From: Halomicrobium mukohataei DSM 12286 | GTDB taxonomy: Archaea > Halobacteriota > Halobacteria > Halobacteriales > Haloarculaceae | Direction: 5' to 3' | Assembly: GCF_000023965.1 (NCBI RefSeq) | Contig: NC_013202.1 | Coordinates: 1,770,001-1,802,000, forward strand | DNA length: 32,000 nt | Part shown: piece by piece, positions 2,274-17,350 of the stretch | Layout of the letters: each line of letters opens with the position of its first letter | How positions within the stretch are numbered: the stretch's first letter is position 1 | Program-made: the position numbers and the translations under genes | Notes under the pieces: generated by a model | Databases searched by the model: none | Seen by the model: the letters and a program-made list of their open reading frames with translations, nothing else | What the model was told of the DNA's origin: nothing

Positions 2274-2307
2274 AATATTGTTAAACCTCCATTGTCCTAA
2301 TACAAGC
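2274..2307. promoter_or_regulatory. 34-bp AT-rich bidirectional promoter spacer between cobN and chlID
   Basis: The spacer aatattgttaaacctccattgtcctaatacaagc is the only AT-rich stretch here. TTAAA at 2281-2285 lies ~27 nt upstream of the chlID ATG (2308). TATTAG on the minus strand, around 2296-2304, lies ~27 nt upstream of the cobN ATG (2273). This spacing fits archaeal TATA boxes driving leaderless mRNAs. Confidence 0.4.
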
Positions 2308-4467
2308 ATGATTGATTTCGGTGGCGGCAAAAAAGCTTCGCCCGGGCGGGCGGGCGAACTCGGGTTCGCCGACATCGTGGGTCAGGCGGAACTCAAAGAG
2401 GCGCTGTTGACCGTCGCGGCCAACGACGACCTCGACGGACTGCTGATTCAGGGCGAGAAGGGCACGGCCAAGTCGACGGCGGTGCGGGCGCTCGCGGCGT
2501 TGCTCCCCGACCAGACCGCCGTCGCCGACTGCCCGTACGGCTGTCCGCCGGACGAGCCCGACCGCCAGTGTGAGGACTGTCGCGAGCGGACCGACCCGCC
2601 GACCGAGCAGCGCCCGGTCCCGCTCGTGACCCTCCCGCTCGGTGCGACCCGCGAGCGCGTCGTCGGGACGCTCTCGGTCGCCGACGCGCTCGCTGGCGAC
2701 TACGAGTTCGACCCCGGACTGCTGGCGCGAGCGAACCGGGGCATCCTCTACGTCGACGAGGTGAATCTGCTGGACGACCACCTCGTCGACGTGTTGCTCG
2801 ACGCCGCAGCCAGCGGTACCAACCGCGTCGAGCGCGACGGCGTGAGCGTCGCCCACCCCGCCGACTTCACGCTCGTCGGGACGATGAACCCCGAAGAGGG
2901 CGAACTACGCCCGCAGCTACGGGACCGCTTCGCGCTCCAGGCGACCGTCACGGGTGCCGACGACCTCGACGACCGGGTCGCGATCATCGAGCAGGCGCTT
3001 GCAGACGGCGACGACGGCGACCGGCGGGCCGACGTTCCAGACGACGAGCGCCGGGCACAGCTCTGCGAGGCCCGAGCGGGGCTGTCGGCGGTGACCCTGT
3101 CTCCCGAGTTCACCACCGAGATCGCCGAGCTGTGCCGCGACGCGGGCGTCGACGGCCACCGCGCGGACATCGCGACGGCCCGCGCGGCCCGCACGCTCGC
3201 GGCACTCGACGGCCGCGTGAAGGTCCTCGAATCCGACGTACGGCGGGCGGCCGCCATGGCCCTGCCCCACCGACTCCGCTCGCGTCCCTTCGAAGACGAG
3301 CCAGACGCCTCGGAGCTACTGGACGACCACTTCGACGACGAGAGCGGCGGCGACGGCGAGTCCGAGCGAGACGAGACCGAAGCCGACGCGGACGGCGACG
3401 GAGACCAGAGTGAGGCCGACGGGGAGGGCGGTGACGACGCCGACGGCGACACCGCGGACGAAGAGAGCGGGGGCGACACGCCGGACGGCGACGACGGGGG
3501 ACAGACACGGCAGCCGGCGGCCGACGACGGCGGAGACGACGCCCCGTCACCGCCGCCCGGCTCCGAAGCCGGCGACGCCGGGGAGGACTCCGGCGAGGCC
3601 GAGCGCGGCGAGGACGAGTCCGGCGGCGGCGAGAGCGACGAACGGACCGGGGGGACGCCGCTGGTGCCCGGCCAGTCCCCCACACCCGTCGGCGAGAGCG
3701 ACGCGCCCGACCTCAGTGCGCCCGAGGCCGTCGCCGAGGGTCGGGCCGCCAGCGGACGCGGGTCGGTCGCTCCCGCCGTCGACGGGGAGGGTGCGCGGGT
3801 CAGAACCCAGCGCGCGAACTCGGACCGCCAGATCGACGCCGCGGCCTCGGTCCGGGCCGCGACCGCACGAGGCGGCTCCGGCGTCGAGTCTCGCGACCTC
3901 CGCCAGTCGGTCCGGGAACGGGACAGCGCCGTGCTCGTGGTCTTCGCCGTCGACGCGAGCGCGTCGATGCGGCCGGCGATGCGGGCCGCGAAGGGGACGG
4001 TGCTGGAACTCCTGAAAGACGCCTACCAGGAACGCGACGAGGTCGCGTTCGTGACCTTCGCCGGTGAGGGGGCCGACGTGCTCTTGCCGCCGACCGACAG
4101 CGTCACGCTCGCGGCCAGACACCTCAAAGACCTCCCGACGGGCGATCGAACGCCGCTGCCGGCGGGACTATGCGCTGCCGGCGACGTGATCCGGCGAGCC
4201 GATCCGGCCGCCAGCGTCGTCGTCCTCGTGACCGACGGGCGCGCCAACGTCGCCGACGGGAGTCCGACCGAGGAGACGCGCGACGCGGCCCGCGAGATCG
4301 CCGCGCGCGGAAGTTCCGTCGTCGTCGTCGACGCCGGAGACGACGGCGACACGGGTCTCACGGGGCTGATCGCCGACGAGACCGACGGCCGGCGTGTGCC
4401 CCTGGACGCGCTCTCGGCCGAACGGATCGACGCCGCCGCCGGAGCCGCCAGAACAAACGAGATTTAA
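2308..4467 (+). CDS. chlID: ChlI/ChlD-type AAA+ chelatase subunit: ChlI-like ATPase module, acidic linker and C-terminal VWA domain. It is the partner of CobN.
   Basis: Taken from the ATG at 2308 (MIDFGGGKKASPGRAGELGFADIVGQAELKEALL...). The upstream part of the listed 2077..4467 ORF overlaps cobN and looks non-coding. Walker A reads GEKGTAKST and Walker B reads ILYVDEVNLL. A long D/E/G-rich linker follows, then a VWA/MIDAS-like region (VVFAVDASASM ... VVLVTDGRAN). Confidence 0.9.
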   Translation: MIDFGGGKKASPGRAGELGFADIVGQAELKEALLTVAANDDLDGLLIQGEKGTAKSTAVRALAALLPDQTAVADCPYGCPPDEPDRQCEDCRERTDPPTEQRPVPLVTLPLGATRERVVGTLSVADALAGDYEFDPGLLARANRGILYVDEVNLLDDHLVDVLLDAAASGTNRVERDGVSVAHPADFTLVGTMNPEEGELRPQLRDRFALQATVTGADDLDDRVAIIEQALADGDDGDRRADVPDDERRAQLCEARAGLSAVTLSPEFTTEIAELCRDAGVDGHRADIATARAARTLAALDGRVKVLESDVRRAAAMALPHRLRSRPFEDEPDASELLDDHFDDESGGDGESERDETEADADGDGDQSEADGEGGDDADGDTADEESGGDTPDGDDGGQTRQPAADDGGDDAPSPPPGSEAGDAGEDSGEAERGEDESGGGESDERTGGTPLVPGQSPTPVGESDAPDLSAPEAVAEGRAASGRGSVAPAVDGEGARVRTQRANSDRQIDAAASVRAATARGGSGVESRDLRQSVRERDSAVLVVFAVDASASMRPAMRAAKGTVLELLKDAYQERDEVAFVTFAGEGADVLLPPTDSVTLAARHLKDLPTGDRTPLPAGLCAAGDVIRRADPAASVVVLVTDGRANVADGSPTEETRDAAREIAARGSSVVVVDAGDDGDTGLTGLIADETDGRRVPLDALSAERIDAAAGAARTNEI

Positions 4468-4480
4468 CAGAGACGAAAGC

Positions 4481-4488
4481 TTTACAAT
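4481..4488 (+). promoter_or_regulatory. TATA-like element upstream of cbtB
   Basis: tttacaat sits in the AT-rich 42-bp gap after chlID, centred ~26 nt upstream of the GTG at 4510. This fits a leaderless cbtB transcript. Confidence 0.3.
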
Positions 4489-4509
4489 CTAGTTTGTACT
4501 TAGTCACTC

Positions 4510-4707
4510 GTGGTTTCAATGACGACTGCTACCGACACCGTCTCGGGTCGCGTCGCACAGGCACAGACGGAACTGACTCCGACACAGTTACTCGCCGGCA
4601 TCGCGCTCGTGGCCGCGCTGGGCTTCGCGCTGGTCTTCCTCCAGGCACCGATGGCCCACGACTCGATGCACAACTTCCGACACGCCGCCGGGGTCGTCTG
4701 TCACTGA
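4510..4707 (+). CDS. cbtB: Putative cobalt transporter small subunit CbtB
   Basis: 65 aa with one TM helix (LLAGIALVAALGFALVFL) and the C-terminal His/Cys signature HDSMHNFRHAAGVVCH typical of CbtB. It lies next to cbtA and cobN. The start may be the GTG at 4510 or the ATG at 4519. Confidence 0.8.
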   Translation: MVSMTTATDTVSGRVAQAQTELTPTQLLAGIALVAALGFALVFLQAPMAHDSMHNFRHAAGVVCH

Positions 4708-4709
4708 TC

Positions 4710-5501
4710 ATGCTCGCCGACTACATTCTTCGCGGCGCGAAAGCGGGACTGGTCGCCGGCCTGCTGTTCGGGCTACTCGTGGCTCTGGTCGCCAATCCGC
4801 TCGTCGCTGCGGCCGACACGCACGGCCACGCCGAGGAGGGCCACGCTGAGGAAGGCCACGCCGAGGAGGGCCACGCTGACGAAGACCACGCCGAGGCCGG
4901 TGGTCACCACGAGAGCGCCGTCTCGGCGACGGTGACGAACGTCGTGAGCGTCGGTGCCAGCGTGCTGTGGGGCCTGCTGCTCGGGACGGTCGTCTTCGGC
5001 GTCGCCGGCTACGTCCTCGAACCGATCGTCCCCGGCGAGGGTGCCGTCCAGAGCGCGCTGCTCGCGGTCGGTGGCTTCGTCACCGTCTCCGGCGCGCCGT
5101 GGCTCCTCCTCCCGCCGTCGCTTCCGGGCGTCGAACGCGCCATCCCGACGGACACCGGCATGGTGCTCTACGCCGGCATGATGGTCGCTGGCGCGGTCGT
5201 CTGCCTGCTGTCTGCGGTGTGCTACGATCGACTCCGCGACCGGTACGGTCGCCCCGCGGCGGCGGTCGCCGCGCTGGTTCCCTTCGGGCTGCTCGTGGCC
5301 CCGGCCACGCTTACCCCTCTCGGACCGGCGACCGGCTCCCTGTCGCCAGCGCTGGCCGACGGGCTGCTCGGAACGGTCGTCTTCGGCCAGCTCCTCCTGT
5401 GGACGGCTCTCGCAGCGACACACGCGCGACTGGGCCGTGACGATGGGTCTCGACCGGCGACGCCGTCCGCACGGACAGACGCCGCCCTCAGTGCGGACTG
5501 A
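4710..5501 (+). CDS. cbtA: Putative cobalt transporter subunit CbtA with a His-rich loop
   Basis: Taken from the ATG at 4710 (MLADYILRGAKAGLVAGLLFGLLVALV...), 2 nt after the cbtB stop. It is a multi-TM protein with the loop HGHAEEGHAEEGHAEEGHADEDHAEAGGHH. The upstream part of the listed 4170..5501 ORF is an Arg-rich out-of-context read-through of chlID. Confidence 0.85.
   Translation: MLADYILRGAKAGLVAGLLFGLLVALVANPLVAAADTHGHAEEGHAEEGHAEEGHADEDHAEAGGHHESAVSATVTNVVSVGASVLWGLLLGTVVFGVAGYVLEPIVPGEGAVQSALLAVGGFVTVSGAPWLLLPPSLPGVERAIPTDTGMVLYAGMMVAGAVVCLLSAVCYDRLRDRYGRPAAAVAALVPFGLLVAPATLTPLGPATGSLSPALADGLLGTVVFGQLLLWTALAATHARLGRDDGSRPATPSARTDAALSAD
4824..4898 (+). repeat. Five tandem 15-bp units encoding (G/D)HA(E/D)(E/A) in the CbtA loop
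   Basis: The units are GGCCACGCCGAGGAG / GGCCACGCTGAGGAA / GGCCACGCCGAGGAG / GGCCACGCTGACGAA / GACCACGCCGAGGCC. Units 1 and 3 are identical and units 2 and 4 differ by one base, which implies duplication of a 30-bp block. Confidence 0.95.
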
Positions 5502-5839
5502 TGGAGGAACGCACGGTCGAGGTCCACGAGCGGGGCTTCTCCGATCACGTCCTCGTCTGTACGAACGGCCGAGAGAGCGAGCACGCCTGCTGTAGCGAGG
5601 CCGGCGGCGAGGCGGTCTTCGACGCCGTCGTCGAGTGGCTCCGCGAGCGCGACCTGCTGTGGTCGCGCGTCTACGTCGCCGAGACGGGCTGTCTCGGACT
5701 CTGTAGCGCCGACGGCGCGGCGATCGCGGTCCACCCCCGGAGCAGCTGGTACTCGGACGTGCGACCCGACGACGTGGCCCCGCTGCTGGCCGAGGAGTTC
5801 GGTCCCGACGGGTCCCGACTCGGTGTCACTGCCGACTGA
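5501..5839 (+). CDS. Thioredoxin-like [2Fe-2S] ferredoxin (CbiW-like)
   Basis: 112 aa. The start overlaps the cbtA stop (TGATG). VLVCTNGRESEHACCSEAGG ... ETGCLGLCSADGAAIAV gives the C-x(9-10)-C ... C-x3-C pattern of thioredoxin-fold 2Fe-2S ferredoxins. Confidence 0.78.
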   Translation: MEERTVEVHERGFSDHVLVCTNGRESEHACCSEAGGEAVFDAVVEWLRERDLLWSRVYVAETGCLGLCSADGAAIAVHPRSSWYSDVRPDDVAPLLAEEFGPDGSRLGVTAD

Positions 5840-6016: not shown

Positions 6017-7279
6017 CTACCGGCCCTGTGAACTTCTCGCCGACTGGCTTCTCGGCGCACGATCGACGAGAAGACGATACGCACCGCGCTCGGTGCCGTC
6101 GTCGTGGTAGACGACCGGCTCCTCGACGGCGACGACGCGGTCTCCGTCGACCGCGACTGCCGTGACGATGCCGTCGGTCTCGCGGCTCGCTACCGGGCCG
6201 TCCCGGGCCGACAGCACCCGCAGGCCGTGACAGTCGGCATCGCGCGTCCGGAAGTGCTGTGCGCCCGGCACGACTACGTGGTGGTCCGCGACGGCGATCT
6301 CGCCGGCAAACCCGCCCACGTCGGCCGACCACCGACGTTGGCCGTCCGGTCCGTAGCCGAAGGCGGTGTGTTCCGCGGGGTGGAGGGCGTCGGTCTCGCG
6401 ACGGTCGACGGCGTAGGTGTTGCCGGTGACGAAGACGGACGCTCCGTTGCCGGCGGCGACGTGGTTCGGGTACGCGTACAGCGTCTCGTCGCCGACCGTC
6501 GTCCGTGTCGCCAGCTCGGCGCGCCACCGGACGGTGCCGCCGTCGTCGAGGCGGTAGCCACAGTAGTCGCCGTGACTCGCGACGAGGGCACCGTCCTCGA
6601 CGAGCGCGACGTCACCGACCCGGCGCTGTCCGTCGCTGTCGGGATCCCACTGCCAGTGGCTCGTCCCATGTTCGGCGTCGAGCACGACGAGGCCCCGCTG
6701 GTGGCTGCCGGGACAGCGGTTGTACGCGACCGCGAGGCGGTCGTCTCGCCGATCGAGGCTGATCGGCGACGCGTCGGCCTCGAACTGCCAGCGTCGCGTC
6801 CCGTCGTCGGCGAACGCGGAGACGACGCTTCGAAACGAGCGGCGGTCGCCGTCGCGCTCGTAGCGGCGGGCGGCGACGTACGCGCGGTCCTCGTCGGTCA
6901 CGATGTCTGCGACGAACGGCAGGAAGAACCGCGTCTCTCTCTGTGGCTCGCCGATCTCTGCCGCCGTCGCGTGCTGCCAGCGCCGTCGACCCGTCGCCGC
7001 CTCGTAGCACCGCACCCGCCCGTCCGGGCCTCGCTCACCGGCGAGGACCGCGTCGCCGAACGCCGCGAGCGCGACCACGGCGGCGTCCGCTCCCTCGCGG
7101 TCCGCGCGCCACTGCTCTGTCAGGGTGGCGTGATCGAACGCGATCACGTCGCCCGTCGCCGTCCCGACGACGACCAGTTCACCCGTCAGCGCGACTGCCG
7201 AGCGCCGGCCCGCGTGGCGCGACCGCGCCGGAGACGGTTCGCCGAGGCCGACCGACCGTGGCTTCGGCCGCTCACTCAT
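6017..7279 (-). CDS. PQQ-like (BamB/YxaL-type) beta-propeller repeat protein, last gene of the cbi operon
   Basis: 420 aa with recurring propeller-blade motifs (...VVVGTATGDVIAFDHATLTEQWR..., ...VRCYEAATGRRRWQH..., ...DDGTRRWQFEA..., ...DAEHGTSHWQW..., ...DDGGTVRWRA..., ...GPDGQRRWSADV...). The start overlaps the upstream stop by 8 nt (ATGAGTGA). No convincing signal peptide is present. Confidence 0.75.
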   Translation of the reverse strand: MSERPKPRSVGLGEPSPARSRHAGRRSAVALTGELVVVGTATGDVIAFDHATLTEQWRADREGADAAVVALAAFGDAVLAGERGPDGRVRCYEAATGRRRWQHATAAEIGEPQRETRFFLPFVADIVTDEDRAYVAARRYERDGDRRSFRSVVSAFADDGTRRWQFEADASPISLDRRDDRLAVAYNRCPGSHQRGLVVLDAEHGTSHWQWDPDSDGQRRVGDVALVEDGALVASHGDYCGYRLDDGGTVRWRAELATRTTVGDETLYAYPNHVAAGNGASVFVTGNTYAVDRRETDALHPAEHTAFGYGPDGQRRWSADVGGFAGEIAVADHHVVVPGAQHFRTRDADCHGLRVLSARDGPVASRETDGIVTAVAVDGDRVVAVEEPVVYHDDGTERGAYRLLVDRAPRSQSARSSQGR

Positions 7280-7643
7280 CGACCGGGAAGGCTTCGTGGA
7301 GCACGTCGTGGGCCTCGCCCAGCCCGTCGAGGACGCTCTCGCCCTGGCTCGTCAGCCGGTGGACCGCTCGCTCGGCGTCCCGGACCGCGACGAGTCGCCC
7401 CCGCATGTAGTCGTACTCCTGACTGTCCGAATCGGCCTCGGCGATCTCGGCTTCGAGATCCACCAGCGCCGCGTCGAGGTGGCGTTCGATGGCCGAGAGG
7501 GACTCGGCCTCTGCCAGGGCCTCGATCGGGCCGTCGAGTTCGCCTTCGAGTTCTTTTTCCGCGTGCTCGCGCGCGTGTTCGTCTTCGCTTCCCAGTACGT
7601 TCATCAGTCCGAGTCGGAGTGCTTCGATTTCGTAGCAGCTCAT
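7272..7643 (-). CDS. Acidic, predicted all-helical 123-aa protein of unknown function. It may belong to the DUF3209 family, but that is from memory only.
   Basis: MSCYEIEALRLGLMNVLGSEDEHAREHAEKELEGELDG... The start overlaps the cbiX stop (ATGA) and the stop overlaps the next start (ATGAGTGA). The composition is typical of haloarchaeal coding sequence. Confidence 0.7.
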   Translation of the reverse strand: MSCYEIEALRLGLMNVLGSEDEHAREHAEKELEGELDGPIEALAEAESLSAIERHLDAALVDLEAEIAEADSDSQEYDYMRGRLVAVRDAERAVHRLTSQGESVLDGLGEAHDVLHEAFPVDE

Positions 7644-8872
7644 TGTGAGAGTGTTTGATCGACGAGTTCTGAGACGATGCGGTCACGGTCGAGGTGCGAG
7701 GAGACGATCCGCTCGGCGTCGTCCTCGCCGACGCCGCCGTACCAGACGCCGTCGGGGTAGACGGCGACCATCGGCCCCTCGCCACAGCGACCGAGACACG
7801 AGGAGCGGGTCACGCGGGCGTCACAGGCCTCCGAGTCGCGTTCGGCCTGCCGGAGCCGCTCCAGGACGGCGGCCGAGCCGTCGGCCGCGCAGGTCTGGTT
7901 CGTACAGACGGCGACGTGTTTCTCCGGGGCGTCGTGTGCGTGGGGTTCGTCGTCGACGTTCTCGCGGTCGGCGTGGGTCTCCTGGTGGGTCAGCGCCCGG
8001 AGCATCGCCCGCGCGCCGCCCACGTCTTCCTCGTAGCCGTCCAGTTCGACCTTGTACTTGCAGGTGTCACAGGACATCTCGACGCTGTCGGTGCGGGCCT
8101 CCTGCCAGCGGTCGCCCAGCACGTCCAGCAGCCGCGAGTCCGTCCCGAGGGGGTCGCCGGCCGCGGCGTCGACGTAGGGGTACTCCTCGTCGAACGCGTC
8201 GGCGCGGTCTCGAATCCGCTGGGTGAGGACCCCGTCGCCGAGCATGTACGGGAGGACGACGACGCCGTCCGGTCGCCGCTTGGCGACCGTGTGCAGCGTG
8301 TCCTCCAGGAGCGGTTCGGTCACGCCGATGAAGCTCGTCTCGACGTGGTCGAACGCGCGCCCCTCGTACAGCAGGCGCGCCAGTTTGTGCGCGTCGCTGT
8401 TGGCGTCGGGGTCGCTAGAGCCCCGGGCACAGAGGACGACCGTCAGATCGTCCGCCGTGCGGTCGAGTCCGAGTTCCGCCTCGACCGCCGCCGCGCGGTC
8501 GTCCAGCAGATCCACGATCGCCGGGTGGACGCCGAGGTGTGCCCCGTTGTGGATCGTCAGATCGGGGTGAGCCGAGCGGGCCTGCTCGACCGCCAGCGGC
8601 ACGTCGTTCTTGACGTGGCTCGCGGCAAAGAGCGAGAGCTGGACGACGGTGACCCGCGAGACCGACGCCGCCAGTCCCGCGATGGCCGCCTCGATCGAGG
8701 GCTCGGCGAGTTCGAGAAAGCCCGCGTCGGTCGGCACGCCGAGGCGCTCCTCGACGGCCGCGGCCAGCTCCCGGACCTGTTCGTTCGACTTCTCGCGTCG
8801 AGAGCCGTGTCCGACTAGCAGGACGGCCTCGTCGTCGAGCGAGACCGGCGTCGCGGCGGCGTCGGCGGTCAT
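7640..8872 (-). CDS. cbiX: Sirohydrochlorin cobaltochelatase, long form (CbiX-L), fused to a C-terminal thioredoxin-like [2Fe-2S] ferredoxin domain
   Basis: Taken from the ATG at 8872 (MTADAAATPVSLDDEAVLLVGHGSRR...), which overlaps the upstream stop (ATGA). There are two CbiX half-domains (LLVGHGSR..., VVLCARGSSD...). An MSCDTCKY (MxCxxC) motif and a His-rich stretch (HQETHADRENVDDEPHAHDAPEKH) follow. The protein ends with VAVCTNQTCAADGS...SSCLGRCGEGPMVAVYPDGVWYG, which is ferredoxin-like. The 36 codons upstream in the listed ORF are Arg-rich and overlap the previous gene. Confidence 0.88.
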   Translation of the reverse strand: MTADAAATPVSLDDEAVLLVGHGSRREKSNEQVRELAAAVEERLGVPTDAGFLELAEPSIEAAIAGLAASVSRVTVVQLSLFAASHVKNDVPLAVEQARSAHPDLTIHNGAHLGVHPAIVDLLDDRAAAVEAELGLDRTADDLTVVLCARGSSDPDANSDAHKLARLLYEGRAFDHVETSFIGVTEPLLEDTLHTVAKRRPDGVVVLPYMLGDGVLTQRIRDRADAFDEEYPYVDAAAGDPLGTDSRLLDVLGDRWQEARTDSVEMSCDTCKYKVELDGYEEDVGGARAMLRALTHQETHADRENVDDEPHAHDAPEKHVAVCTNQTCAADGSAAVLERLRQAERDSEACDARVTRSSCLGRCGEGPMVAVYPDGVWYGGVGEDDAERIVSSHLDRDRIVSELVDQTLSQ

Positions 8873-9582
8873 TCTAACGCCCCCACGTCGTTCCCGGTCG
8901 CGCGTTCGACGCTGCGCCGGAGCTTCTGGCGGCGCTGGGCCGAGTAGAGCCCCGTCTCGTCGCTGCCGGCGTACACCCACTCGGCGAACGCCGCCACGTC
9001 GGCGTCGTCGGCGAGTCCGAACCAGTAGCCCCCCGAGGACGTCTCCGAGCGGTCGTCCGTCGGCAGCGTCGGCGCTGCCTCGGCGAGCAGCGACCGGATC
9101 GTCGCCAGCAGCCGCTCGTCGTCGTGGACGAACGAGACCCCGACCGACCCGGAGGACTCGCGGAAACAGACCGTCCCGCAGGCCTCCAGCAGGCCACGCA
9201 CCAGCGCCGCTCGCTCCTCGCTGAAGGCGTCGAAGCGGTAGCCACCGGGCTGGCCGTCCAGCGGGAGACCGAGGGCCGCGCTCGCTCGGTCCGCGGGCGG
9301 GCCGAACACCTGTAGCTCGTAGGCGTCCTCGTACCGGACGATCGAGGCGTCGTGGGCCGACTCGCGCTCGGCGACGCGGTGGTCGCGGTCGGTGCGGTCG
9401 GCACCCGCGACTGCCGCCAGCGCGTTCGCGGCCGTCTCGTCGCCCGCCCGGACGGTCACGCAGTCCGCGGTGAGATCGCCGTCTCCGGCGACCCGGCCCC
9501 AGAAGTACGCCGTTCCGGGCGTGACCGCCAGCAGGTCCTCGGCGGCTCTCGGCGTCGCCCTCGCGCTGTCGGCGTCACTCAT
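8869..9582 (-). CDS. Hypothetical 237-aa cobalamin-operon protein with two degenerate LAGLIDADG-like motifs
   Basis: Taken from the ATG at 9582 (MSDADSARATPRAAEDLLAV...), which overlaps the fdx stop by 8 nt. Motif 1 is AYFWGRVAGDGD (res 25-36). Motif 2 is AALVRGLLEACGTV (res ~125-138). They lie ~100 residues apart, as in double-motif LAGLIDADG folds. No enzyme family was recognised. Confidence 0.75.
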   Translation of the reverse strand: MSDADSARATPRAAEDLLAVTPGTAYFWGRVAGDGDLTADCVTVRAGDETAANALAAVAGADRTDRDHRVAERESAHDASIVRYEDAYELQVFGPPADRASAALGLPLDGQPGGYRFDAFSEERAALVRGLLEACGTVCFRESSGSVGVSFVHDDERLLATIRSLLAEAAPTLPTDDRSETSSGGYWFGLADDADVAAFAEWVYAGSDETGLYSAQRRQKLRRSVERATGNDVGALE

Positions 9583-9817
9583 CGCTCCCCTCCGACACCG
9601 AGATCGCGTCGACCGGACAGGCGGCCGCGGCCTGTCGAGCCGCCTCGATCCGGTCGTCGTCGAACGTCGCGACGACGGTCTCCTCGCCGTCCGTGTCGGT
9701 CGCGCCGATCGTCGCCAGCCCGTCGCTGGCCTCCACGAACCGATCGTCACGGACGAGACAGGCGAAGACCCCGTCGCAGGCCGCCCGGTCGAGTGCCACG
9801 CGGTACTCAGTAGTCAT
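9575..9817 (-). CDS. fdx: Small ferredoxin, single-cluster type (C-x5-C ... CP, three Cys)
   Basis: 80 aa: MTTEYRVALDRAACDGVFACLVRDDRFV...AAAACPVDAISV. The pattern resembles mono-cluster [3Fe-4S]/[4Fe-4S] ferredoxins. The start overlaps the cbiH stop by 11 nt. Confidence 0.72.
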   Translation of the reverse strand: MTTEYRVALDRAACDGVFACLVRDDRFVEASDGLATIGATDTDGEETVVATFDDDRIEAARQAAAACPVDAISVSEGSDE

Positions 9818-10769
9818 ACTTGGACTCGTACCCCCGCGGCGTCACCATCCGGTCGTCCCAGACGTAGGTGTCCTCGTTGCCCACGAGGATGGTCGTCGTC
9901 ATGTCGATCAGATCGGTCTCGCCGAGGTCTTCGAGCTCGCCCAGCGTGACGATCTCGACGCTTTCGTCCTCGCGGCCCGCGCCGTGGACGATCCCCACGG
10001 GCGTGTCCGGGTCGCGGTGGTCCAGCAGGATCTCACAGCACCGCTGGAAGTTCTCCCGTCGCTTGCGGCTCCAGGGGTTGTAGATGGCGATGGTGAAGCC
10101 CTCGTCGGCGACGGCGTGCAGGCGCGACTCGATGGTCTCCATGGGCGTCAGGTGGTCGGACAGCGAGACGCTGACGGTGTCGTTGACCAGCGGCGCGCCC
10201 AGCCGCGCGCCACAGGACTGGGCCGCGGGCACGCCGGGGACGACCTCGAAGTCGACGGCACTGGCCGTCCCGCCCTTCGATTCGAGGATCTCCAGTGCGA
10301 GTCCGGCGAGCGCGTAGACGTTGGGGTCGCCGCTGCCGATGATCGCCACGTCGTTGCCCGCCAGCGCGCGGTCGATAGCCTCCTCCGTCCGAGAGACCTC
10401 GCCACACATCGGCGTGTCGTACAGTTCCTCGGCCGACTCGGTGATCTCCGCTGGCAGCAGGTCGACGTAGGTCGTGTAGCCGACGATGTGCTCCGCGTCG
10501 AGCAGCGCGCCCCGCGCTCGCTGGGTCATCCCCTCGGGCTGGCCGGGACCGAGACCGACCGCTACGAGGCGGCCGGGGTCGGCGTCGAAGTCGTCGACGG
10601 TCGCGCCGACCTTCTCGTCGGTCGTCGAATCCGAGCCACCACAGCCGGAACCGGACGACGAACTGTCGCTGCCGGCTCCGCACGTGGCGGCGCTGTCGTC
10701 GTCGGTACTGCTCGCGCCACAGTTCGATTCGGTGTCGGTACTCGCGTCGGTGGTGTCGTCAGTGCTCAT
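9807..10769 (-). CDS. cbiH: Cobalt-factor III / precorrin-3B C17-methyltransferase (CbiH/CobJ family) with a ~65-aa D/S/T/G-rich, Cys-containing N-terminal extension
   Basis: The tetrapyrrole methylase core reads LVAVGLGPGQPEGMTQRA...IIGSGDPNVYALAG...VVPGVPAAQSCGARLGAPL...ILVGNEDTYVWDDRMVTPRGYESKY. There is no alternative ATG or GTG before the methylase core. The start lies 2 nt after the upstream stop. Confidence 0.87.
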   Translation of the reverse strand: MSTDDTTDASTDTESNCGASSTDDDSAATCGAGSDSSSSGSGCGGSDSTTDEKVGATVDDFDADPGRLVAVGLGPGQPEGMTQRARGALLDAEHIVGYTTYVDLLPAEITESAEELYDTPMCGEVSRTEEAIDRALAGNDVAIIGSGDPNVYALAGLALEILESKGGTASAVDFEVVPGVPAAQSCGARLGAPLVNDTVSVSLSDHLTPMETIESRLHAVADEGFTIAIYNPWSRKRRENFQRCCEILLDHRDPDTPVGIVHGAGREDESVEIVTLGELEDLGETDLIDMTTTILVGNEDTYVWDDRMVTPRGYESKYDY

Positions 10770-10771
10770 TG

Positions 10772-11704
10772 TTAGAAGTCGTCGACGTCACGCCCGCCGC
10801 GCGGGGTGACGAGGTGTTTGCCGTAGTCGTTCTCCCAGACCTCCGTCTCGTGGTTGCCCACGAGGATCGAGGTGCCCATGCCGCCGACCTCGTCGTCGTG
10901 GTCGGTCGCCGCGCCCAGCGTCGTGATCGTGTGGGTCTCGTCCTCCAGATTGCGACCGGCCTCGCCCCGGCCGGCGTCGTTGAAGATGCCCACCGGCACG
11001 TCGTCGGCCCGCTCCTCGCGGAGCACGTCGATGGCGCGCTCGTAGTCGCGCCAGCAGTTGTAGAGGACGACGACGAAGCCGCTGATCGCCGCGGCCCGGA
11101 GCTTCTCCTCGATCTCGTCCCAGCCGCGCCACTTGTCGGACAGCGAGATCGTACAGAAGTCGTTCGACAGCGGCGCGCCGAGGTTGGCCGCGCCGCCAAG
11201 CGCCGCCGTCACGCCGGGGACGACCTCGATGGGCACGTCGGTCGCTCCCTCGGCCTCGGCCATCGTGTACAGCAGGTCGCTCTTGCCGTAGACGTTCGGG
11301 TCGCCGCCCGAGACGTGGGCCACATCCTCTCCCGCTCGAACCCGCTCGAAGGCCTCTCTGGCGAGTTCGATCTGGCGGCCCATCGAGGAGCGCACCAGCT
11401 CCTGGCGGGTCCCGTTTGGCCGTTCGAGGACGGTCCCCGACTCGCTGTCGGCCCCTCCGTCCGCGGCCGCCTCGATCGCCGCGCTCTCGGGTGGCAGCGT
11501 GCCGTCCTTGCGGAGGAACTCCTGGTAGAGGTTGGAGGCGATGACGCAGTCCGCGGTGCGGATCACGTCTTTCGCCTCCTGTGTCATCGCGTGGGGGAGG
11601 CCGGGACCGATCCCGACGACGGAGAGCGTGCCGTGGTCTCGGGATTCGCTCGCGGGTCGTTTCTCGCCGCTCGCGTCCGAGTCGTCGGGCGACTCCGCTG
11701 CCAT
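10772..11704 (-). CDS. cbiH: Second CbiH/CobJ-family C17-methyltransferase paralogue
   Basis: LSVVGIGPGLPHAMTQEAKDV...HVSGGDPNVYGKSD...VVPGVTAALGGAANLGAPLSNDFCTISLSD...ILVGNHETEVWENDYGKHLVTPRGG. It has the same architecture as the downstream gene but is clearly divergent. Confidence 0.85.
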   Translation of the reverse strand: MAAESPDDSDASGEKRPASESRDHGTLSVVGIGPGLPHAMTQEAKDVIRTADCVIASNLYQEFLRKDGTLPPESAAIEAAADGGADSESGTVLERPNGTRQELVRSSMGRQIELAREAFERVRAGEDVAHVSGGDPNVYGKSDLLYTMAEAEGATDVPIEVVPGVTAALGGAANLGAPLSNDFCTISLSDKWRGWDEIEEKLRAAAISGFVVVLYNCWRDYERAIDVLREERADDVPVGIFNDAGRGEAGRNLEDETHTITTLGAATDHDDEVGGMGTSILVGNHETEVWENDYGKHLVTPRGGRDVDDF

Positions 11705-11705
11705 C

Positions 11706-12692
11706 CTACCGCCCCACCGCCACGGTGACGGCGTCGTCGAAGCGCTCCTTCTCGCGGGCGAGGTCGTGCTCGCGGCCGCCAGCGATGGCCGAGGCCTCCG
11801 CGATGCCCGGCCAGCCGATCAGCTCCTTCGACCGGGAGGGCGAGGGGCCCTCGAACGTTTCCAGGGTCTCTTTCTCGAAGAGGACGACGCCGGCCCCGAT
11901 CTCCTGGGCGGCCTCGTAGAGCCCGTCTTCGCCCTCCTTTCGGGTCCCCGTGGCGACGAAGTCCACGTCCGAGCGGTCGAGGTCCAGGTCGTCGAGCGCG
12001 GCGTCCCAGGCGTCGAGCACCTGCTGGGTGTCGACGCCGGAGACCGTCCCCGTCCCCAGCACCACGCCGTCGTCTTCGTTGCGCTTGAGCACGGTCACGT
12101 CGTCGCCCACGAGGACGGCCTTCGGGCCGTCGAGTCGCGCCACGGGAGCCAGTTCCTCGTTCAGCACCGCGAGGTTCGTCGCCACCGTCGAGTCGCCGTT
12201 GACGACGTGGGTGTCCAGCGCTTTCGCCTTGCTCTCGACGCCCTGCTTGCCCGCGGCCTCGCTCGCGGTCGTCATCGCCGGCACCGCGCCGAGGCGGGCG
12301 AGGTCGTTGGCGACCTGATTGGCACCGTGGTGGCCCCCGGTGATCGGGATGGCCCAGGTCAGGGCCTCGTCGATCACGACGATCGCGGGGTCGTCCCACT
12401 TGTCGTCGAGCAGCGGCGCGGTCTTTCGCATCGCGATGCCCGAGGCCATCAGGCCGACGAAGCAGTCGTACTCCCCCCAGTACTCCTCGAACACGTCGCC
12501 GTGGTACTCGACGATGTCGACGCTCTCGTAGTCGTCTCCGATCTCGGCCTCGATCTCGCGCGCCGTGTCGAGCTTGCGCTCGAAACTGATGATCGCGATC
12601 TCTTCGGCCACTTCCCCGTCCGAGTCGGGCGTCGAACAGTGGCCGCTCGATTCCTCGTTGCCTGTGTCGTTGTCGTCTGTTTCGGTACTCAT
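11706..12692 (-). CDS. cbiG: Cobalt-precorrin-5A hydrolase CbiG
   Basis: 328 aa: ...CFVGLMASGIAMRKTAPLLDDKWDDPAIVVIDE...IPITGGHHGAN...; C-terminal ...VATGTRKEGEDGLYEAAQEIG...GWPGIAEASAIAGG. This is typical of the CbiG N, middle and C domains. Confidence 0.87.
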   Translation of the reverse strand: MSTETDDNDTGNEESSGHCSTPDSDGEVAEEIAIISFERKLDTAREIEAEIGDDYESVDIVEYHGDVFEEYWGEYDCFVGLMASGIAMRKTAPLLDDKWDDPAIVVIDEALTWAIPITGGHHGANQVANDLARLGAVPAMTTASEAAGKQGVESKAKALDTHVVNGDSTVATNLAVLNEELAPVARLDGPKAVLVGDDVTVLKRNEDDGVVLGTGTVSGVDTQQVLDAWDAALDDLDLDRSDVDFVATGTRKEGEDGLYEAAQEIGAGVVLFEKETLETFEGPSPSRSKELIGWPGIAEASAIAGGREHDLAREKERFDDAVTVAVGR

Positions 12693-12695
12693 GTA

Positions 12696-13559
12696 TCAGT
12701 CGTCCGCCTCGCTCTCGCTTCCGTCACGATTCGCCCAGCCGTCGTACAGATACGAGCGTTCGTAGCCCGCCTTCCGGGCCGCGTCGCCGATCACCACCAG
12801 CGCCGAGGCGCGGTAGCCGGCGGCCTCGACGCGGTCGCCGATCGTCTCGATCGTTCCCTCGATCACGTCCTCGTCCGGCCAGGAGGCGTGATAGACGACG
12901 GCGACCGGCGTGTCCGGGTCGTGACCGTCGTCGAGCAGGCGGTCCATCGTCTCGGCGACGGCGTGGGTGCCGAGGTAGAGACAGGTCGTCACGTCGCCCA
13001 TCTCGACGAACTCGGAGATGTGGTCGTCCTCGGCGTCGAGGGTCTTGCCCTGCGGGCGGGTGAAGGCGACGTGGTTCGCCACGCCGTTCAGGGTCAGCTG
13101 GGTCCGCAGCGTCGCACTCGCCGCGAACGCCGAGGTCACGCCGGGGACGATGTAGGTCGGAACGCCCTCGTGTTCCAGCGCGTCCATCTGTTCCAGCGCC
13201 GCGCCGTAGATCGCCGGATCGCCGCTGTGGAGTCGCACCACGTCACGTCCGTCCTCGTAGGCGTCTCGCATCAGCGGCACCAGCTCTTCGAGGTCCTTGC
13301 CGATGCTCGAAACCTGTTCGGCGTCCGCACAGTAGGCGTCGAGCAGCTCGCTGTTGACCAGCGAGCCGGCGTGGACGACCAGATCCGCGTCCTCGACCAG
13401 TTCCCTGCCGGTGACCGTCAGCAGTCCCGGATCGCCGGGGCCGGCACCGACGAAGGGGATCCCGTCCTGTACGTCGCCAGCGGCGTGGGCCTGTATCCGT
13501 TCGTCGCGGTCCGCGCGGTCGTCTGTGGCCGCGTCGATCGCGTCCTGTGGGTCCGTCAT
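12696..13559 (-). CDS. cbiF: Cobalt-precorrin-4 C11-methyltransferase CbiF
   Basis: Taken from the ATG at 13559 (MTDPQDAIDA...). IPFVGAGPGDPGLLTVTGRELVEDADLVVHAGSLV...VVRLHSGDPAIYGA...IVPGVTSAFAASA...ALVVIG. The start overlaps the cbiL stop (ATGA). The first 264 codons of the listed 551-aa ORF are an Arg-rich read-through across cbiL in another frame. Confidence 0.92.
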   Translation of the reverse strand: MTDPQDAIDAATDDRADRDERIQAHAAGDVQDGIPFVGAGPGDPGLLTVTGRELVEDADLVVHAGSLVNSELLDAYCADAEQVSSIGKDLEELVPLMRDAYEDGRDVVRLHSGDPAIYGAALEQMDALEHEGVPTYIVPGVTSAFAASATLRTQLTLNGVANHVAFTRPQGKTLDAEDDHISEFVEMGDVTTCLYLGTHAVAETMDRLLDDGHDPDTPVAVVYHASWPDEDVIEGTIETIGDRVEAAGYRASALVVIGDAARKAGYERSYLYDGWANRDGSESEADD

Positions 13560-14326
13560 CGCTGTCCCCCCGCGGACGCGTCGGCGCTGGCATCGCCGTC
13601 GGTCGCCTCGACGGCCGTCCCGGCCTCTCCTCGCTCGTCTGCCGTCTCGAAGGTCGCCGTCGCCGGCTCGGCTTCGAGCCCTCGCTTCTCGGCGTAGGCC
13701 AGCGTGTAGTAGTCCCGTTCCGTGAGTTCCTCTGGGTCGTCGGTGACGACCGTCTCTCCCTGTTCCATGTAGAGCCGGCGGCCGTAGACGACCTCGTAGC
13801 CGGCGTCGACGAGCCGTTCGTGGGTCGCCGGCACGTCCGTCACCTTGAACAGCACCATTCGGTCTGGCCCGGTCGGGGCCGCCCCGCGGGCCGCCTCGTG
13901 GAGCGTGAGGCTCGCGCCGGCCGCCACTTCGACGCCAAGCGCCGTCGTGAACGCGCTGACGGCGCTGACGCCGGGGACCGTCTCGACGGTCACGCCGGGG
14001 TGAAACGCGTCCAGCGTCCGGCGCAGGTGGCCGAACGTCGAGTAGACGTTCGGGTCCCCGAGCGTCACGAACGCCGCCGTTCCGTCGCGGGCTCGCGGTG
14101 CGATCTCGGCGGCGGCCGCCTTCCAGGCCCGGCGGAGTTCGTCCTCGTCGCGGGTCATCGGGAAGTCGAGGTCTCCGATCCGTTCCTCGTCGACGTACGC
14201 CGTCGCGACCGACCGCGAGAGCCTGCCGGGCGTGTACACCACGTCGGCGGTTTCGAGGACCTCGCGCCCGCGCACGGTCACGAGGTCGGCGTCCCCGGGG
14301 CCGAGCCCGACGCCGTAGAGGGTCAC
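13556..14326 (-). CDS. cbiL: Cobalt-factor II (precorrin-2) C20-methyltransferase CbiL
   Basis: MTLYGVGLGPGDADLVTVRGREVLETADVVY...FVTLGDPNVYSTFGHL...VPGVSAVSAFTTALG. It has a GTG start that overlaps the cbiT stop (GTGA). Confidence 0.9.
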   Translation of the reverse strand: MTLYGVGLGPGDADLVTVRGREVLETADVVYTPGRLSRSVATAYVDEERIGDLDFPMTRDEDELRRAWKAAAAEIAPRARDGTAAFVTLGDPNVYSTFGHLRRTLDAFHPGVTVETVPGVSAVSAFTTALGVEVAAGASLTLHEAARGAAPTGPDRMVLFKVTDVPATHERLVDAGYEVVYGRRLYMEQGETVVTDDPEELTERDYYTLAYAEKRGLEAEPATATFETADERGEAGTAVEATDGDASADASAGGQR

Positions 14327-14883: not shown

Positions 14884-14907
14884 CGGCAAACACAAGGCTC
14901 GTTGCGC

Positions 14908-14916
14908 GTAAAACAA
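14908..14916 (-). promoter_or_regulatory. TATA-like element for the cbi operon
   Basis: The minus strand reads TTGTTTTAC, 25-33 nt upstream of the cbiT ATG. It lies in the only AT-rich segment between the response-regulator stop (14971) and cbiT. Confidence 0.4.
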
Positions 14917-14932
14917 TTTTGGTTGTTTTACT

Positions 14933-15540: not shown

Positions 15541-15723
15541 GTCTGTGGTCGTAGGGTCCCTGACGCAAAGAAGCTGACTGCAGTCGGGACAGCCCCTCGG
15601 GACGGCCTCGGTTGCCGTCGATTCGTATCTCCTCTCTCGTCACGAAACCACCACGAGCGTTCCGGTGATTTGATAGTGTCCGACAGTCGGATACCCTATA
15701 GTGATGCACGGGCGTGGTCGGCC

Positions 15724-17286: not shown

Positions 17287-17350
17287 CGGGTCCGTAACGT
17301 ACTTGCCGACACCTCCGGAAGGGTGTGGAAATGACACGGGAGTGGACCGT

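What the first reader, a model, noticed from the sequence alone, without database searches (positions are those of the whole stretch)
8869..9582. Degenerate double LAGLIDADG-like protein embedded between fdx and cbiX
The 237-aa product has AYFWGRVAGDGD (res 25-36; nt 9475-9510) and AALVRGLLEACGTV (res ~125-138; nt ~9169-9210). Each motif is followed by short beta-like segments (CVTVRAG..., VCFRESSGSVGVSFVHDD...). The motifs lie ~100 residues apart, which is the layout of a single-chain LAGLIDADG homing-endonuclease fold. Motif 1 keeps acidic GDGD. Motif 2 has EACG where an acidic catalytic residue is expected, suggesting a non-nuclease, domesticated fold acting as a DNA/RNA-binding regulator, scaffold or chaperone. 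It is not flanked by an intein or intron, and both ends overlap biosynthetic genes (8-nt and 4-nt). This argues for a fixed operon component rather than a selfish element. A LAGLIDADG-type fold dedicated to a cofactor pathway would be unusual.
Basis: inference. Interest (0 to 1): 0.65.

Follow-up and report, generated by a model that had tools for sequence, protein, structure and literature searches.

The report
Nuclease-dead LAGLIDADG protein in B12 operon
A gene fixed in the vitamin B12 operon of salt-loving archaea encodes a protein with the fold of a selfish DNA-cutting enzyme that has lost its cutting residues; its job (regulator or pathway helper) is still unknown, and this work makes it directly testable.

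Summary
Window 8869-9582 (-) encodes a 237-aa protein with both motifs at the stated coordinates and the stated 8-nt and 4-nt overlaps with fdx and cbiX.

The LAGLIDADG reading also holds. An AlphaFold2 model (pLDDT 88.8) has a doubled alpha-beta-beta-alpha-beta-beta-alpha topology, and its top 43 Foldseek PDB hits are all LAGLIDADG proteins. Homologues carry Pfam PF26411 "LAGLIDADG_4".

It is not a mobile nuclease:
- Catalytic position 8 of motif 2 is Cys135.
- Asp34 of motif 1 is not conserved outside haloarchaea.
- The gene sits in the same cbiT-L-F-G-H-H-fdx-X-cbiX-DUF3209-PQQ order in 80 of 80 haloarchaeal loci.

It is the orthologue of Haloferax volcanii HVO_B0055, published in 2021 as one of four unassigned cobalamin-cluster genes.

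New here:
- His77/Cys135/Cys139 are conserved family-wide around the former metal site.
- Distant homologues lie next to cob operons in Myxococcota and inside a cation-efflux operon in Halorutilales.
- A near-invariant 24-bp operator-like element overlaps the promoters of the cobalt/cobalamin genes.

Function is unresolved. My best guess is an operon-encoded cobalt- or corrinoid-responsive nucleic-acid-binding regulator (about 0.35). The main rival is a ferredoxin-linked pathway component, possibly replacing the missing CbiJ.

The parts
8869..9582 (-). Gene for the 237-aa LAGLIDADG_4 protein, orthologue of Hfx. volcanii HVO_B0055
9253..9534 (-). N-terminal LAGLIDADG domain (residues ~17-110). 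Helix 22-34 carries motif 1, FWGRVAGDG. Invariant His77 (nt 9352-9354) lies in the beta3-beta4 hairpin.
   Evidence: AF2 secondary structure; conservation
9475..9510 (-). Motif 1, AYFWGRVAGDGD. Asp34 is at the catalytic position 8.
   Evidence: D34 is present in 74/80 haloarchaea and not conserved elsewhere.
8968..9252 (-). C-terminal LAGLIDADG domain (residues ~111-205). Helix 117-135 carries motif 2, VRGLLEACG.
   Evidence: sub-threshold LAGLIDADG_3 hits of relatives at this motif
9166..9210 (-). Motif 2 plus the Cys135-x3-Cys139 pair (C135 nt 9178-9180, C139 nt 9166-9168) in the former active site
   Evidence: C139 is present in 80/80 and invariant family-wide. C135 is present in 79/80 and nearly invariant.
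8896..8940 (-). C-terminal basic helix (residues 215-229, RRQKLRRSVERA), an addition to the LAGLIDADG core
   Evidence: R217 and K220 are invariant in the 80 species, R217 family-wide
9575..9817 (-). Upstream ferredoxin (Fer4_15, 3 Cys), overlapping the target by 8 nt
7640..8872 (-). Downstream cbiX (two CbiX domains plus a thioredoxin-like 2Fe-2S domain), overlapping the target by 4 nt
6017..7643 (-). DUF3209 gene (7272-7643) and PQQ-like beta-propeller gene (6017-7279), the other unassigned cluster genes
   Evidence: PMC8305020
9807..14883 (-). Upstream enzymes of the operon: cbiT (ATG 14883), cbiL (~13556-14326), cbiF (~12696-13559), cbiG (11706-12692) and two cbiH paralogues (10772-11704, 9807-10769)
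14908..14931 (-). 24-bp operator/promoter element GTAAAACAACCAAAATTGTTTTAC, ending 24 nt before the cbiT ATG. It is a candidate (unproven) target of the protein.
2297..2320 (+). Weaker related element CTAATACAAGCATGATTGATTTCG, spanning the chlID ATG (2309) and 13 nt from the divergent cobN ATG (2284)

Best explanation
Shown: the gene encodes a single-chain, two-domain LAGLIDADG-fold protein (Pfam LAGLIDADG_4, orthologue of HVO_B0055). It has lost the paired acidic catalytic residues of homing endonucleases. It is a vertically inherited, translationally coupled member of the haloarchaeal cobalamin operon.

Inferred: like every characterised LAGLIDADG-fold protein, it binds nucleic acid. It would act as the operon-encoded regulator of the cobalt/cobalamin regulon. 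It would recognise the near-invariant 22-24-bp element TAAWACAA-CCAAAA-TTGTTTTA. That element overlaps the BRE/TATA region of cbiT, of split-off cbiH sub-operons, of cobN/chlID, and of cobalt-transporter genes, so binding would block or modulate TBP/TFB recruitment. His77, Cys135 and Cys139, with Glu133, sit where the nuclease once bound Mg2+. They would form a soft-metal (Co2+) or corrinoid sensing site that sets DNA affinity. This would be a protein substitute for the B12 riboswitch, which archaea lack (the latter from my own knowledge).
For: - Fold. All 43 top structural neighbours are nucleic-acid-binding LAGLIDADG proteins, including the domesticated transcription factor WhiA and the bI3 maturase.
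- Loss of nuclease residues.
- Fixed operon membership: 80/80 loci.
- An orphan cis element is present in 66/66 cbiT upstream regions and ends 21-25 nt (52/66 exactly 24 nt) before the ATG. Its asymmetric 6-nt spacer is as conserved as its arms. That pattern fits a 22-bp asymmetric reader better than a symmetric dimer that ignores the spacer.
- Extra copies of the element appear wherever the operon is split (L027, L059, L074, L078, L080-82). Copies also lie at cobN/chlID, before cbiMQO in L142, and a weaker related sequence near cbtB in Hfx. volcanii.
- No other conserved gene of the cluster has a nucleic-acid-binding fold.
- Myxococcota homologues are stand-alone genes transcribed divergently from cob operons in 3 of 4 contexts. 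They are basic (pI 8.9-9.6 for the LAGLIDADG part) and carry an extra N-terminal domain that could be a sensor.
- The Halorutilales homologue sits inside a CDF cation-efflux operon. From my own knowledge, that is the position metal-sensing repressors such as CzrA occupy.
Against: - No binding experiment or model links the protein to the element. The link is co-location only.
- The element has perfect 8-bp inverted arms, which suit a symmetric homodimer. The two domains of this protein share no detectable sequence similarity.
- The right arm sits at the TATA position, so part of the element's conservation may be promoter function.
- A mid-operon position with 8-nt and 4-nt overlaps to a ferredoxin and an Fe-S-bearing CbiX is more typical of an enzyme subunit.
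- The Myxococcota cob operon in L088 already has a cobalamin riboswitch.
- The conserved outward-facing residues of the domain-2 hairpin are small (T137, C139, G148, S150) rather than typical base readers. The facing is inferred from strand alternation, not from coordinates.
- No lineage-specific co-variation between protein and operator variants was seen.
Confidence: 0.35

Rival explanations
1. Pathway component. The LAGLIDADG scaffold has been re-used as a substrate- or metal-binding partner of the adjacent ferredoxin and the 2Fe-2S-bearing CbiX. The most interesting version is the catalytic or proton-donating subunit of a ferredoxin-dependent cobalt-precorrin-6A reductase. That would replace CbiJ, which haloarchaea lack, by analogy to cofactor-free ferredoxin-dependent bilin reductases. 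The many invariant arginines would bind corrin carboxylates, and Cys135/Cys139/His77 would do the redox or proton chemistry.
For: - Two consecutive pathway gaps (CbiD, EC 2.1.1.195; CbiJ, EC 1.3.1.106) and four unassigned cluster genes are documented in PMC8305020.
- The gene is translationally coupled to fdx and cbiX in 80/80 loci.
- The protein level changes with temperature like the cobalamin enzymes (PMC8305020 supplement).
- H77, C135, C139, E133 and R83/R116/R129/R217 are invariant.
- In both Myxococcota genomes with long contigs, the adjacent cob genes include CbiD followed directly by CbiC, with no CbiJ in the visible 9-gene stretch.
Against: - No LAGLIDADG-fold protein is known to act on anything but nucleic acid.
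- There is no nucleotide-, flavin- or Fe-S-binding motif.
- Family members in Manganitrophaceae, in an unassigned bacterium and in Halorutilales lie far from any cob gene.
- In the Haloquadratum-like locus L142, the ferredoxin is followed by cbiA, not by this gene.
- In Myxococcota the gene lies outside the riboswitch-controlled operon.
- Absence of CbiJ elsewhere in those genomes was not checked.
Confidence: 0.27
2. Cobalt (or other soft-metal) chaperone or buffer. The former Mg2+ site, now His/Cys/Cys, binds Co2+ and hands it to the CbiX chelatase. In Halorutilales it would hand the metal to CDF exporters. Nothing in this role needs nucleic acid.
For: - A conserved Cys-x3-Cys plus His sits at the vestigial metal site.
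- The gene overlaps cbiX by 4 nt.
- Halorutilales have a CDF-LAGLIDADG_4-rhodanese-CDF operon in two genomes.
- The surrounding regulon includes the cobalt transporters CbtA and CbiMQO.
Against: - That His77 lies near the two cysteines is inferred from LAGLIDADG geometry. No model coordinates were available to confirm it.
- A metal site alone would not explain the 71 positions that are at least 93% conserved across the 80 haloarchaeal species.
- The contexts in Manganitrophaceae and in the beta-oxidation locus show no metal link.
Confidence: 0.15
3. An active or recently active homing endonuclease: a selfish element that happens to lie in the operon.
For: Double LAGLIDADG fold. Asp34 is retained in most haloarchaeal orthologues.
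Against: - Cys replaces the second catalytic acid (79/80) and Asp34 is dispensable.
- There is no intein or intron host.
- Position is identical in 80/80 loci from many genera, at 57-97% identity. That means vertical inheritance under purifying selection.
- Only 22 clusters at 50% identity exist among 1.84 billion representatives.
Confidence: 0.01

Closest known systems
HVO_B0055 (HVO_RS00265) of Haloferax volcanii pHV3, 'conserved hypothetical' or 'cobalamin operon protein'
   Same: Orthologue. It is 53% identical over 96% of the length. It sits in the same place between ferredoxin HVO_B0056 and cbiX1 HVO_B0054, followed by DUF3209 and the PQQ protein. It is listed as a candidate for the cobalamin pathway gaps (PMC8305020).
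   Different: The 2021 paper describes it as 'devoid of any domain assignment'. The LAGLIDADG fold, the Cys/His site, the out-of-phylum relatives and the operator are not discussed there.
Monomeric archaeal LAGLIDADG homing endonucleases (I-Tsp061I 2dch, I-DmoI 2vs7/2vs8)
   Same: Same two-domain fold and size (TM up to 0.62 on the target). The two LAGLIDADG helices lie ~100 residues apart. These are the best structural matches. They recognise asymmetric DNA sites of about 20-22 bp (my knowledge).
   Different: Only 12-16% identity, and no sequence-level hit in PDB. The catalytic acid pair D21/E117 of I-DmoI corresponds here to D34/C135. The gene is not intron-encoded and not mobile. It has an extra C-terminal basic helix.
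WhiA (3hyi, 8dy7), a domesticated LAGLIDADG transcription factor of Gram-positive bacteria
   Same: A nuclease-dead double-LAGLIDADG scaffold retained as a fixed chromosomal gene with a cellular role. Foldseek E 1e-4, TM 0.41-0.56.
   Different: WhiA binds DNA through an appended C-terminal helix-turn-helix domain, which this protein lacks (no HTH Pfam hit). There is no sequence similarity, and the phylum and pathway context differ.
bI3 and related LAGLIDADG maturases (2ab5)
   Same: Catalytically inactive LAGLIDADG proteins that bind structured RNA. This keeps an RNA-binding reading open.
   Different: Maturases are intron-encoded and act on their own intron. No intron or Rfam family is present here.
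CbiJ/CobK precorrin-6A reductase
   Same: Only the pathway context. The step is unassigned in haloarchaea, and this gene is one of four candidates.
   Different: No homology at all. CbiJ is an NAD(P)H enzyme, and this protein has no dinucleotide-binding motif.

Membership tests
LAGLIDADG fold (homing-endonuclease-like) | Two alpha-beta-beta-alpha-beta-beta-alpha units, each led by a LAGLIDADG helix, with the two helices packed at the domain interface | tested here: met
   AF2 pLDDT 88.8, pTM 0.88, with the expected element order. Foldseek ranks 1-43 are all LAGLIDADG proteins, best E 3.4e-6. Even the low-confidence first model gave the same hits.
Pfam PF26411 LAGLIDADG_4 | Match to the family HMM | tested here: met
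   Every listed homologue carries precomputed PF26411, including P0001 at 95% identity (E 1e-138). The family name appears. The local Pfam copy lacks this model, so the window protein itself scored nothing. Membership is therefore by close homology.
Active LAGLIDADG homing endonuclease | A conserved acidic residue at position 8 of each LAGLIDADG motif (metal-binding catalytic pair) | tested here: not met
   Motif 2 has Cys135 (79/80 species). Asp34 of motif 1 is present in 74/80 and replaced by S, R, K or A in other lineages.
Active LAGLIDADG homing endonuclease | Mobile-element context (intron, intein or free-standing with patchy distribution) | tested here: not met
   Same gene order in 80/80 haloarchaeal loci. 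Start and stop overlap biosynthetic genes. No intein or intron signatures.
Active LAGLIDADG homing endonuclease | Site-specific DNA cleavage | not testable with these tools
   Needs purified protein.
WhiA-type domesticated LAGLIDADG regulator | Nuclease-dead double LAGLIDADG domain | tested here: met
WhiA-type domesticated LAGLIDADG regulator | C-terminal helix-turn-helix DNA-binding domain, and sequence match to the WhiA families | tested here: not met
   No Pfam or NCBIfam hit. After the core there is only a short helix and one basic helix, 215-229.
LAGLIDADG maturase | Encoded in, and acting on, a group I intron | tested here: not met
   No intron. The Rfam scan of the window found nothing.
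CbiJ/CobK or CbiD (the missing pathway enzymes) | Homology to PF02571 or PF01888 | tested here: not met
   No Pfam or NCBIfam hits at E<=10. CbiD co-occurs with the Myxococcota homologue, so the protein is not a CbiD substitute there.
CbiJ/CobK functional analogue | Reduces cobalt-precorrin-6A; phyletic complementarity with CbiJ | not tested
   Whole-genome CbiJ presence or absence could not be scanned. Only the local absence in the visible cob clusters was seen.
Sequence-specific DNA-binding regulator of the cobalamin regulon | Binds the conserved 24-bp element | not testable with these tools
   Only co-location is shown.

The most novel reading that the evidence does not exclude
The LAGLIDADG fold has been recruited for chemistry that has nothing to do with nucleic acids. 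Together with the upstream ferredoxin, the protein would be the long-missing cobalt-precorrin-6A reductase (CbiJ substitute) of the haloarchaeal B12 pathway, and perhaps of some Myxococcota. It would use the converted metal site (His77/Cys135/Cys139) and an arginine-rich saddle to bind and reduce the corrin.
Probability: 0.2. Interest if true: 0.85.

Novelty: new variant of a known kind. Interest (0 to 1): 0.6.

Why it matters
Haloarchaea make B12 de novo, yet two consecutive steps (CbiD and CbiJ) have no assigned enzyme. No mechanism is known that regulates their cobalamin genes; archaea lack B12 riboswitches (my knowledge).

This gene is one of only four unassigned members of the cluster, and it is conserved across the loci examined. 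Three results turn "conserved hypothetical" into two sharp, cheap experiments (a deletion phenotype and EMSA/ChIP on a defined 24-bp site):
- It is a nuclease-dead LAGLIDADG protein with a Cys/His-converted metal site.
- Relatives also sit beside cob operons in Myxococcota and in a metal-efflux operon in Halorutilales.
- The regulon carries an orphan, near-invariant 24-bp operator.

Either outcome would be new. One would be a LAGLIDADG-fold metabolite- or metal-responsive regulator in archaea. The other would be the first non-nucleic-acid function for this fold. The fold assignment itself is already in Pfam and the gene is already flagged in the literature, which limits the surprise.

Tried and rejected
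- Direct sequence searches of the protein gave nothing useful: Pfam-A, NCBIfam and PDB sequences. A profile search of PDB also found nothing relevant.
- AF2 on a shallow alignment (30 sequences, 71-95% identical to the query) gave pLDDT 55. I set it aside in favour of the diversified alignment.
- hhalign of the family profile against a real intein LAGLIDADG endonuclease from L086 lined motif 1 up with that protein's LAGLIDADG block, but with probability 2%. That is not evidence.
- BLAST of the N-terminal half against the C-terminal half found no internal repeat signal.
- The 120-aa gene after the bacterial homologue in L001 is a membrane protein, not DUF3209, so there is no conserved LAGLIDADG_4-DUF3209 module.
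- The N-terminal 143-aa domain of the Myxococcota proteins has no Pfam or PDB match.
- I looked for positions where lineages with a degenerate operator (L041, L044, L048) differ in the protein. There was no convincing co-variation.
- Haloferax TSS data for HVO_B0062 are not in the held supplements.
- The TrmB motif (TACT-N7-8-GAGTA), known to affect Halobacterium cobalamin genes, differs from the element found here.
- The operator PWM has no match in the Myxococcota, Halorutilales or Manganitrophaceae loci.
- In the Halorutilales loci a short AAAACGTTTT palindrome upstream of the CDF operon is a lead only.
Full report
OBSERVATION. The minus-strand ORF ending at 8869 begins mechanically at a GTG at 9750, but all homologues start at MSDA..., which is the ATG at 9582. 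The product is therefore 237 aa. The ferredoxin ORF (9575-9817) overlaps the start by 8 nt. The cbiX ATG (8870-8872) overlaps the TGA by 4 nt. The neighbours, all on the minus strand, are cbiT, cbiL, cbiF, cbiG, two cbiH paralogues, a Fer4_15 ferredoxin, the target, a double-CbiX protein with a thioredoxin-like 2Fe-2S domain, DUF3209, and a PQQ-like beta-propeller.

IS IT A LAGLIDADG PROTEIN? Sequence methods alone say nothing. There were no hits in the local Pfam-A, NCBIfam or PDB sequences, even with a profile.

The large protein search found 583 homologues. The 120 listed are 72-95% identical to the query, the organisms named for them are all haloarchaea, and the best is Halomicrobium mukohataei at 95%. 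Where named, they are called "cobalamin biosynthesis protein", "cobalamin operon protein" or "hypothetical protein". All carry a precomputed Pfam domain, PF26411, whose name is LAGLIDADG_4. This model is newer than the local Pfam copy.

An exhaustive HMM search of 1.84 billion representatives found only 22 clusters, so the family is very narrow. Adding these divergent members to the alignment raised the AlphaFold2 model from pLDDT 55 to 88.8, with pTM 0.88. The model has the elements H22-34, E36-38, E41-46, H49-59, E68-74, E82-93, H96-104, then H117-135, E136-141, E146-153, H156-167, E186-190, H196-204. Two extra helices follow, the last being a basic helix at 215-229.

Foldseek against the PDB returned only LAGLIDADG proteins in ranks 1-43: I-Tsp061I (E 3.4e-6, TM 0.54/0.62), the TliVMA and PI-SceI intein endonucleases, WhiA, I-DmoI, I-AniI, bI3 maturase and I-SceI. 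Three divergent members also hit Pfam LAGLIDADG_3 just under threshold, exactly at motif 2. P0126, for example, scores 22.3 bits against a cutoff of 22.5.

IS IT A NUCLEASE OR A SELFISH ELEMENT? Mapping onto the nine-residue motif gives FWGRVAGDG and VRGLLEACG. The catalytic position 8 is Asp34 in motif 1 and Cys135 in motif 2. Across 80 haloarchaeal species, Cys135 is present in 79 and Asp34 in only 74. In Halorutilales, Manganitrophaceae and Myxococcota, Asp34 is replaced by S, A, R or K. The paired acids that define active enzymes are therefore absent.

The genome scan found relatives in 229 species-level genomes. The 80 best were kept, and all have the order cbiH-cbiH-fdx-X-cbiX-DUF3209(-PQQ), with cbiT-L-F-G upstream wherever the contig reaches that far. 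Against the window proteins, identity is 57-97% for the target. It is roughly 70-90% for the Cbi enzymes, 46-72% for the ferredoxin and 47-65% for the PQQ protein, leaving aside the near-identical Halomicrobium katesii locus L004. This is vertical inheritance under purifying selection, not mobility.

WHAT IS ALREADY KNOWN. The Haloferax volcanii orthologue lies on pHV3 between the ferredoxin and CbiX and is annotated "hypothetical protein". It is HVO_B0055. [quoted passage not shown] They note two consecutive unfilled steps, CbiD (EC 2.1.1.195) and CbiJ (EC 1.3.1.106). They describe HVO_B0055 as "devoid of any domain assignment", and they report that its protein level falls at high temperature like the cobalamin enzymes. 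A full-text search found no paper that connects LAGLIDADG proteins with this cobalamin-cluster protein. The one paper holding both terms concerns Poseidoniales viruses, and I did not open it.

NEW EVIDENCE ON FUNCTION.

(1) Conserved residues. Family-wide invariant positions are H77, R129, G130, G136, C139, G148, W187, F188, D192, Y204 and R217, with C135 nearly invariant. Within the 80 haloarchaea, R83, R116, E133, S150 and K220 are also invariant. Cys135 occupies the catalytic-acid position. Cys139 lies four residues on, close to where I-DmoI has its active-site Lys120 (my knowledge of I-DmoI). The old Mg2+ site has thus become a Cys-x3-Cys site.

(2) Relatives elsewhere.
- Myxococcota proteins of about 342 aa have the LAGLIDADG_4 domain preceded by a 143-aa His-rich domain with no detectable family.
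- In three of four Myxococcota contexts, the gene is transcribed divergently from a cob operon (L085/L213, L088/L212, L090; not L091).
- In L088 a cobalamin riboswitch lies between the gene and the operon.
- Both long contigs show CbiD directly followed by CbiC, with no CbiJ in the visible stretch.
- Two Halorutilales genomes have the operon CDF-LAGLIDADG_4-rhodanese-CDF.
- Manganitrophaceae copies, and a copy from an unassigned bacterium, have no cobalamin or metal context.
- Non-halophilic members are neutral to basic, pI 6.9-9.8.

(3) A cis element. When I lined up the DNA upstream of cbiT in the 66 loci that include it, I found a near-invariant AT-rich element, CTAAWACAACCAAAATTGTTTTAC, in otherwise unalignable GC-rich DNA. 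It has 8-bp inverted arms, TAAWACAA and TTGTTTTA. The 6-nt asymmetric spacer CCAAAA is as conserved as the arms.
- In the window it lies at 14908-14931 (-). None of 100 shuffles of the window gave a match with up to 3 mismatches.
- It ends 24 nt before the true cbiT ATG (14883) in 52 of 66 loci, with a range of 21-25 nt. This places the right arm at the TATA position of a leaderless transcript.
- The ORF lister's TTG "start" at 14916 lies inside the element.
- Strong extra copies appear upstream of cbiH wherever the operon is split (L027, L059, L074, L078, L080-82).
- Weaker copies span the divergent cobN/chlID starts (window 2297-2320).
- A canonical copy precedes cbiM-cbiQ-cbiO in a Haloquadratum-like contig (L142).
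- A weaker related sequence lies near cbtB in Hfx. volcanii.
In it, every GC-rich match that scored on the full 24-bp matrix lay before cbiT or cbiH, apart from one (L169) before a PQQ-like gene.
- The element is unlike the TrmB motif reported for Halobacterium.

INTERPRETATION. Three things are shown: the fold, the loss of the nuclease pair, and fixation in the operon. The rest is inference.

I rank first (about 0.35) a nucleic-acid-binding regulator that reads the 22-24-bp element and senses cobalt or a corrinoid at the converted metal site. The reasons are:
- Every known protein with this fold binds nucleic acid.
- The regulon has an orphan operator of LAGLIDADG-target length with a conserved asymmetric spacer.
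- No other conserved cluster gene could bind DNA.
- The Myxococcota (divergent, stand-alone) and Halorutilales (inside an efflux operon) arrangements are those typical of regulators.

Against it:
- The perfect inverted arms suit a symmetric dimer better.
- Part of the element is probably the basal promoter.
- The mid-operon position, translationally coupled between two Fe-S proteins, looks like that of an enzyme subunit.

The main rival (about 0.27) is a ferredoxin-linked pathway component, most interestingly a CbiJ substitute. It is supported by the pathway gap, the coupling to fdx and cbiX, and the local absence of CbiJ in the Myxococcota clusters. A cobalt chaperone role (about 0.15) fits the Cys/His site and the CDF and CbiX neighbours. 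An active homing endonuclease is effectively excluded.

NOVELTY AND SCORE. The fold class is already recorded by Pfam (LAGLIDADG_4), and the gene is a published "open issue". This is therefore not a categorically new object. It is a new variant of the known kind "domesticated, nuclease-dead LAGLIDADG protein" (WhiA, maturases). It differs in having a thiolate-converted metal site, no HTH, and a fixed place in a cofactor operon. It makes the haloarchaeal B12 gap-and-regulation question directly testable. Interest 0.6.

Noticed in passing
window 14908-14931 (-); also L004-L082 upstream of cbiT, and L214 1713-1736: A near-invariant 24-bp AT-rich element, CTAAWACAACCAAAATTGTTTTAC (8-bp inverted arms, conserved 6-nt spacer), lies in 66/66 haloarchaeal cbiT upstream regions. 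It ends 24 nt before the ATG in 52/66. Extra copies lie before split cbiH sub-operons and before cbiMQO, and a weaker related sequence lies near cbtB in Hfx. volcanii. It looks like the operator/promoter of a cobalt/cobalamin regulon. I found no description of it in the literature I could search.
   Followed up: partly
window 2297-2320 (+): A weaker copy of the same element (CTAATACAAGCATGATTGATTTCG) spans the chlID ATG (2309). It lies 13 nt from the divergent cobN ATG (2284), and the two start codons are only 24 nt apart. Similar copies occur at this junction in about 30 other loci.
   Followed up: partly
window 14883-14916 (-): The mechanical cbiT ORF starts at a TTG (14916) that lies inside the conserved DNA element. 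The real start is the ATG at 14883 (MAHVSLPHDAKA..., conserved in all loci). tblastn 'aligns' the extra 11 codons only because the DNA element is conserved.
   Followed up: yes
window 14971-15540 (-): A response-regulator receiver + HalX domain gene sits 55 nt upstream of cbiT. Among the 80 loci it is found at this position only in the Halomicrobium katesii locus L004, so it is not a conserved part of the cluster.
   Followed up: partly
window 9575-9817 (-): The operon ferredoxin (Fer4_15) has only three cysteines. That suggests a 3Fe-4S-type single-cluster ferredoxin, like those that partner P450s (my knowledge). In the Haloquadratum-like contig L142 it is followed by cbiA rather than by the LAGLIDADG_4 gene.
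   Followed up: no
L085/L213, L088/L212, L090 (Myxococcota): LAGLIDADG_4 proteins of about 342 aa carry an N-terminal 143-aa His-rich domain with no Pfam or PDB match. They sit divergently next to cob operons. L088 has a cobalamin riboswitch (7598-7761) between the gene and the operon. The visible clusters contain CbiD-CbiC but no CbiJ.
   Followed up: partly
L086 7059-9960, L087 7059-9978 (Halorutilales): The operon is CDF transporter - LAGLIDADG_4 - rhodanese - CDF transporter. A conserved block, GGGGAYTCGAAAACGTTTTGGGTT, lies about 20-45 nt upstream of the first gene, judged by eye from the printed sequence.
   Followed up: no
window 4170-5839 (+): The CbtA match covers only residues 184-421 of the 443-aa ORF, so the true start is probably later. 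By analogy with pHV3 (cbtB-cbtA-2Fe-2S protein), a small cbtB may lie upstream of it. The 112-aa ORF at 5501-5839 is probably the 2Fe-2S-domain protein.
   Followed up: no
window 15190-18688 (+), 25423-27901 (+): Unrelated neighbours: TrkH/TrkA potassium-uptake genes and cytochrome bd oxidase subunits I and II. The 15190 start of trkH overlaps the response-regulator gene and is probably too far upstream.
   Followed up: no
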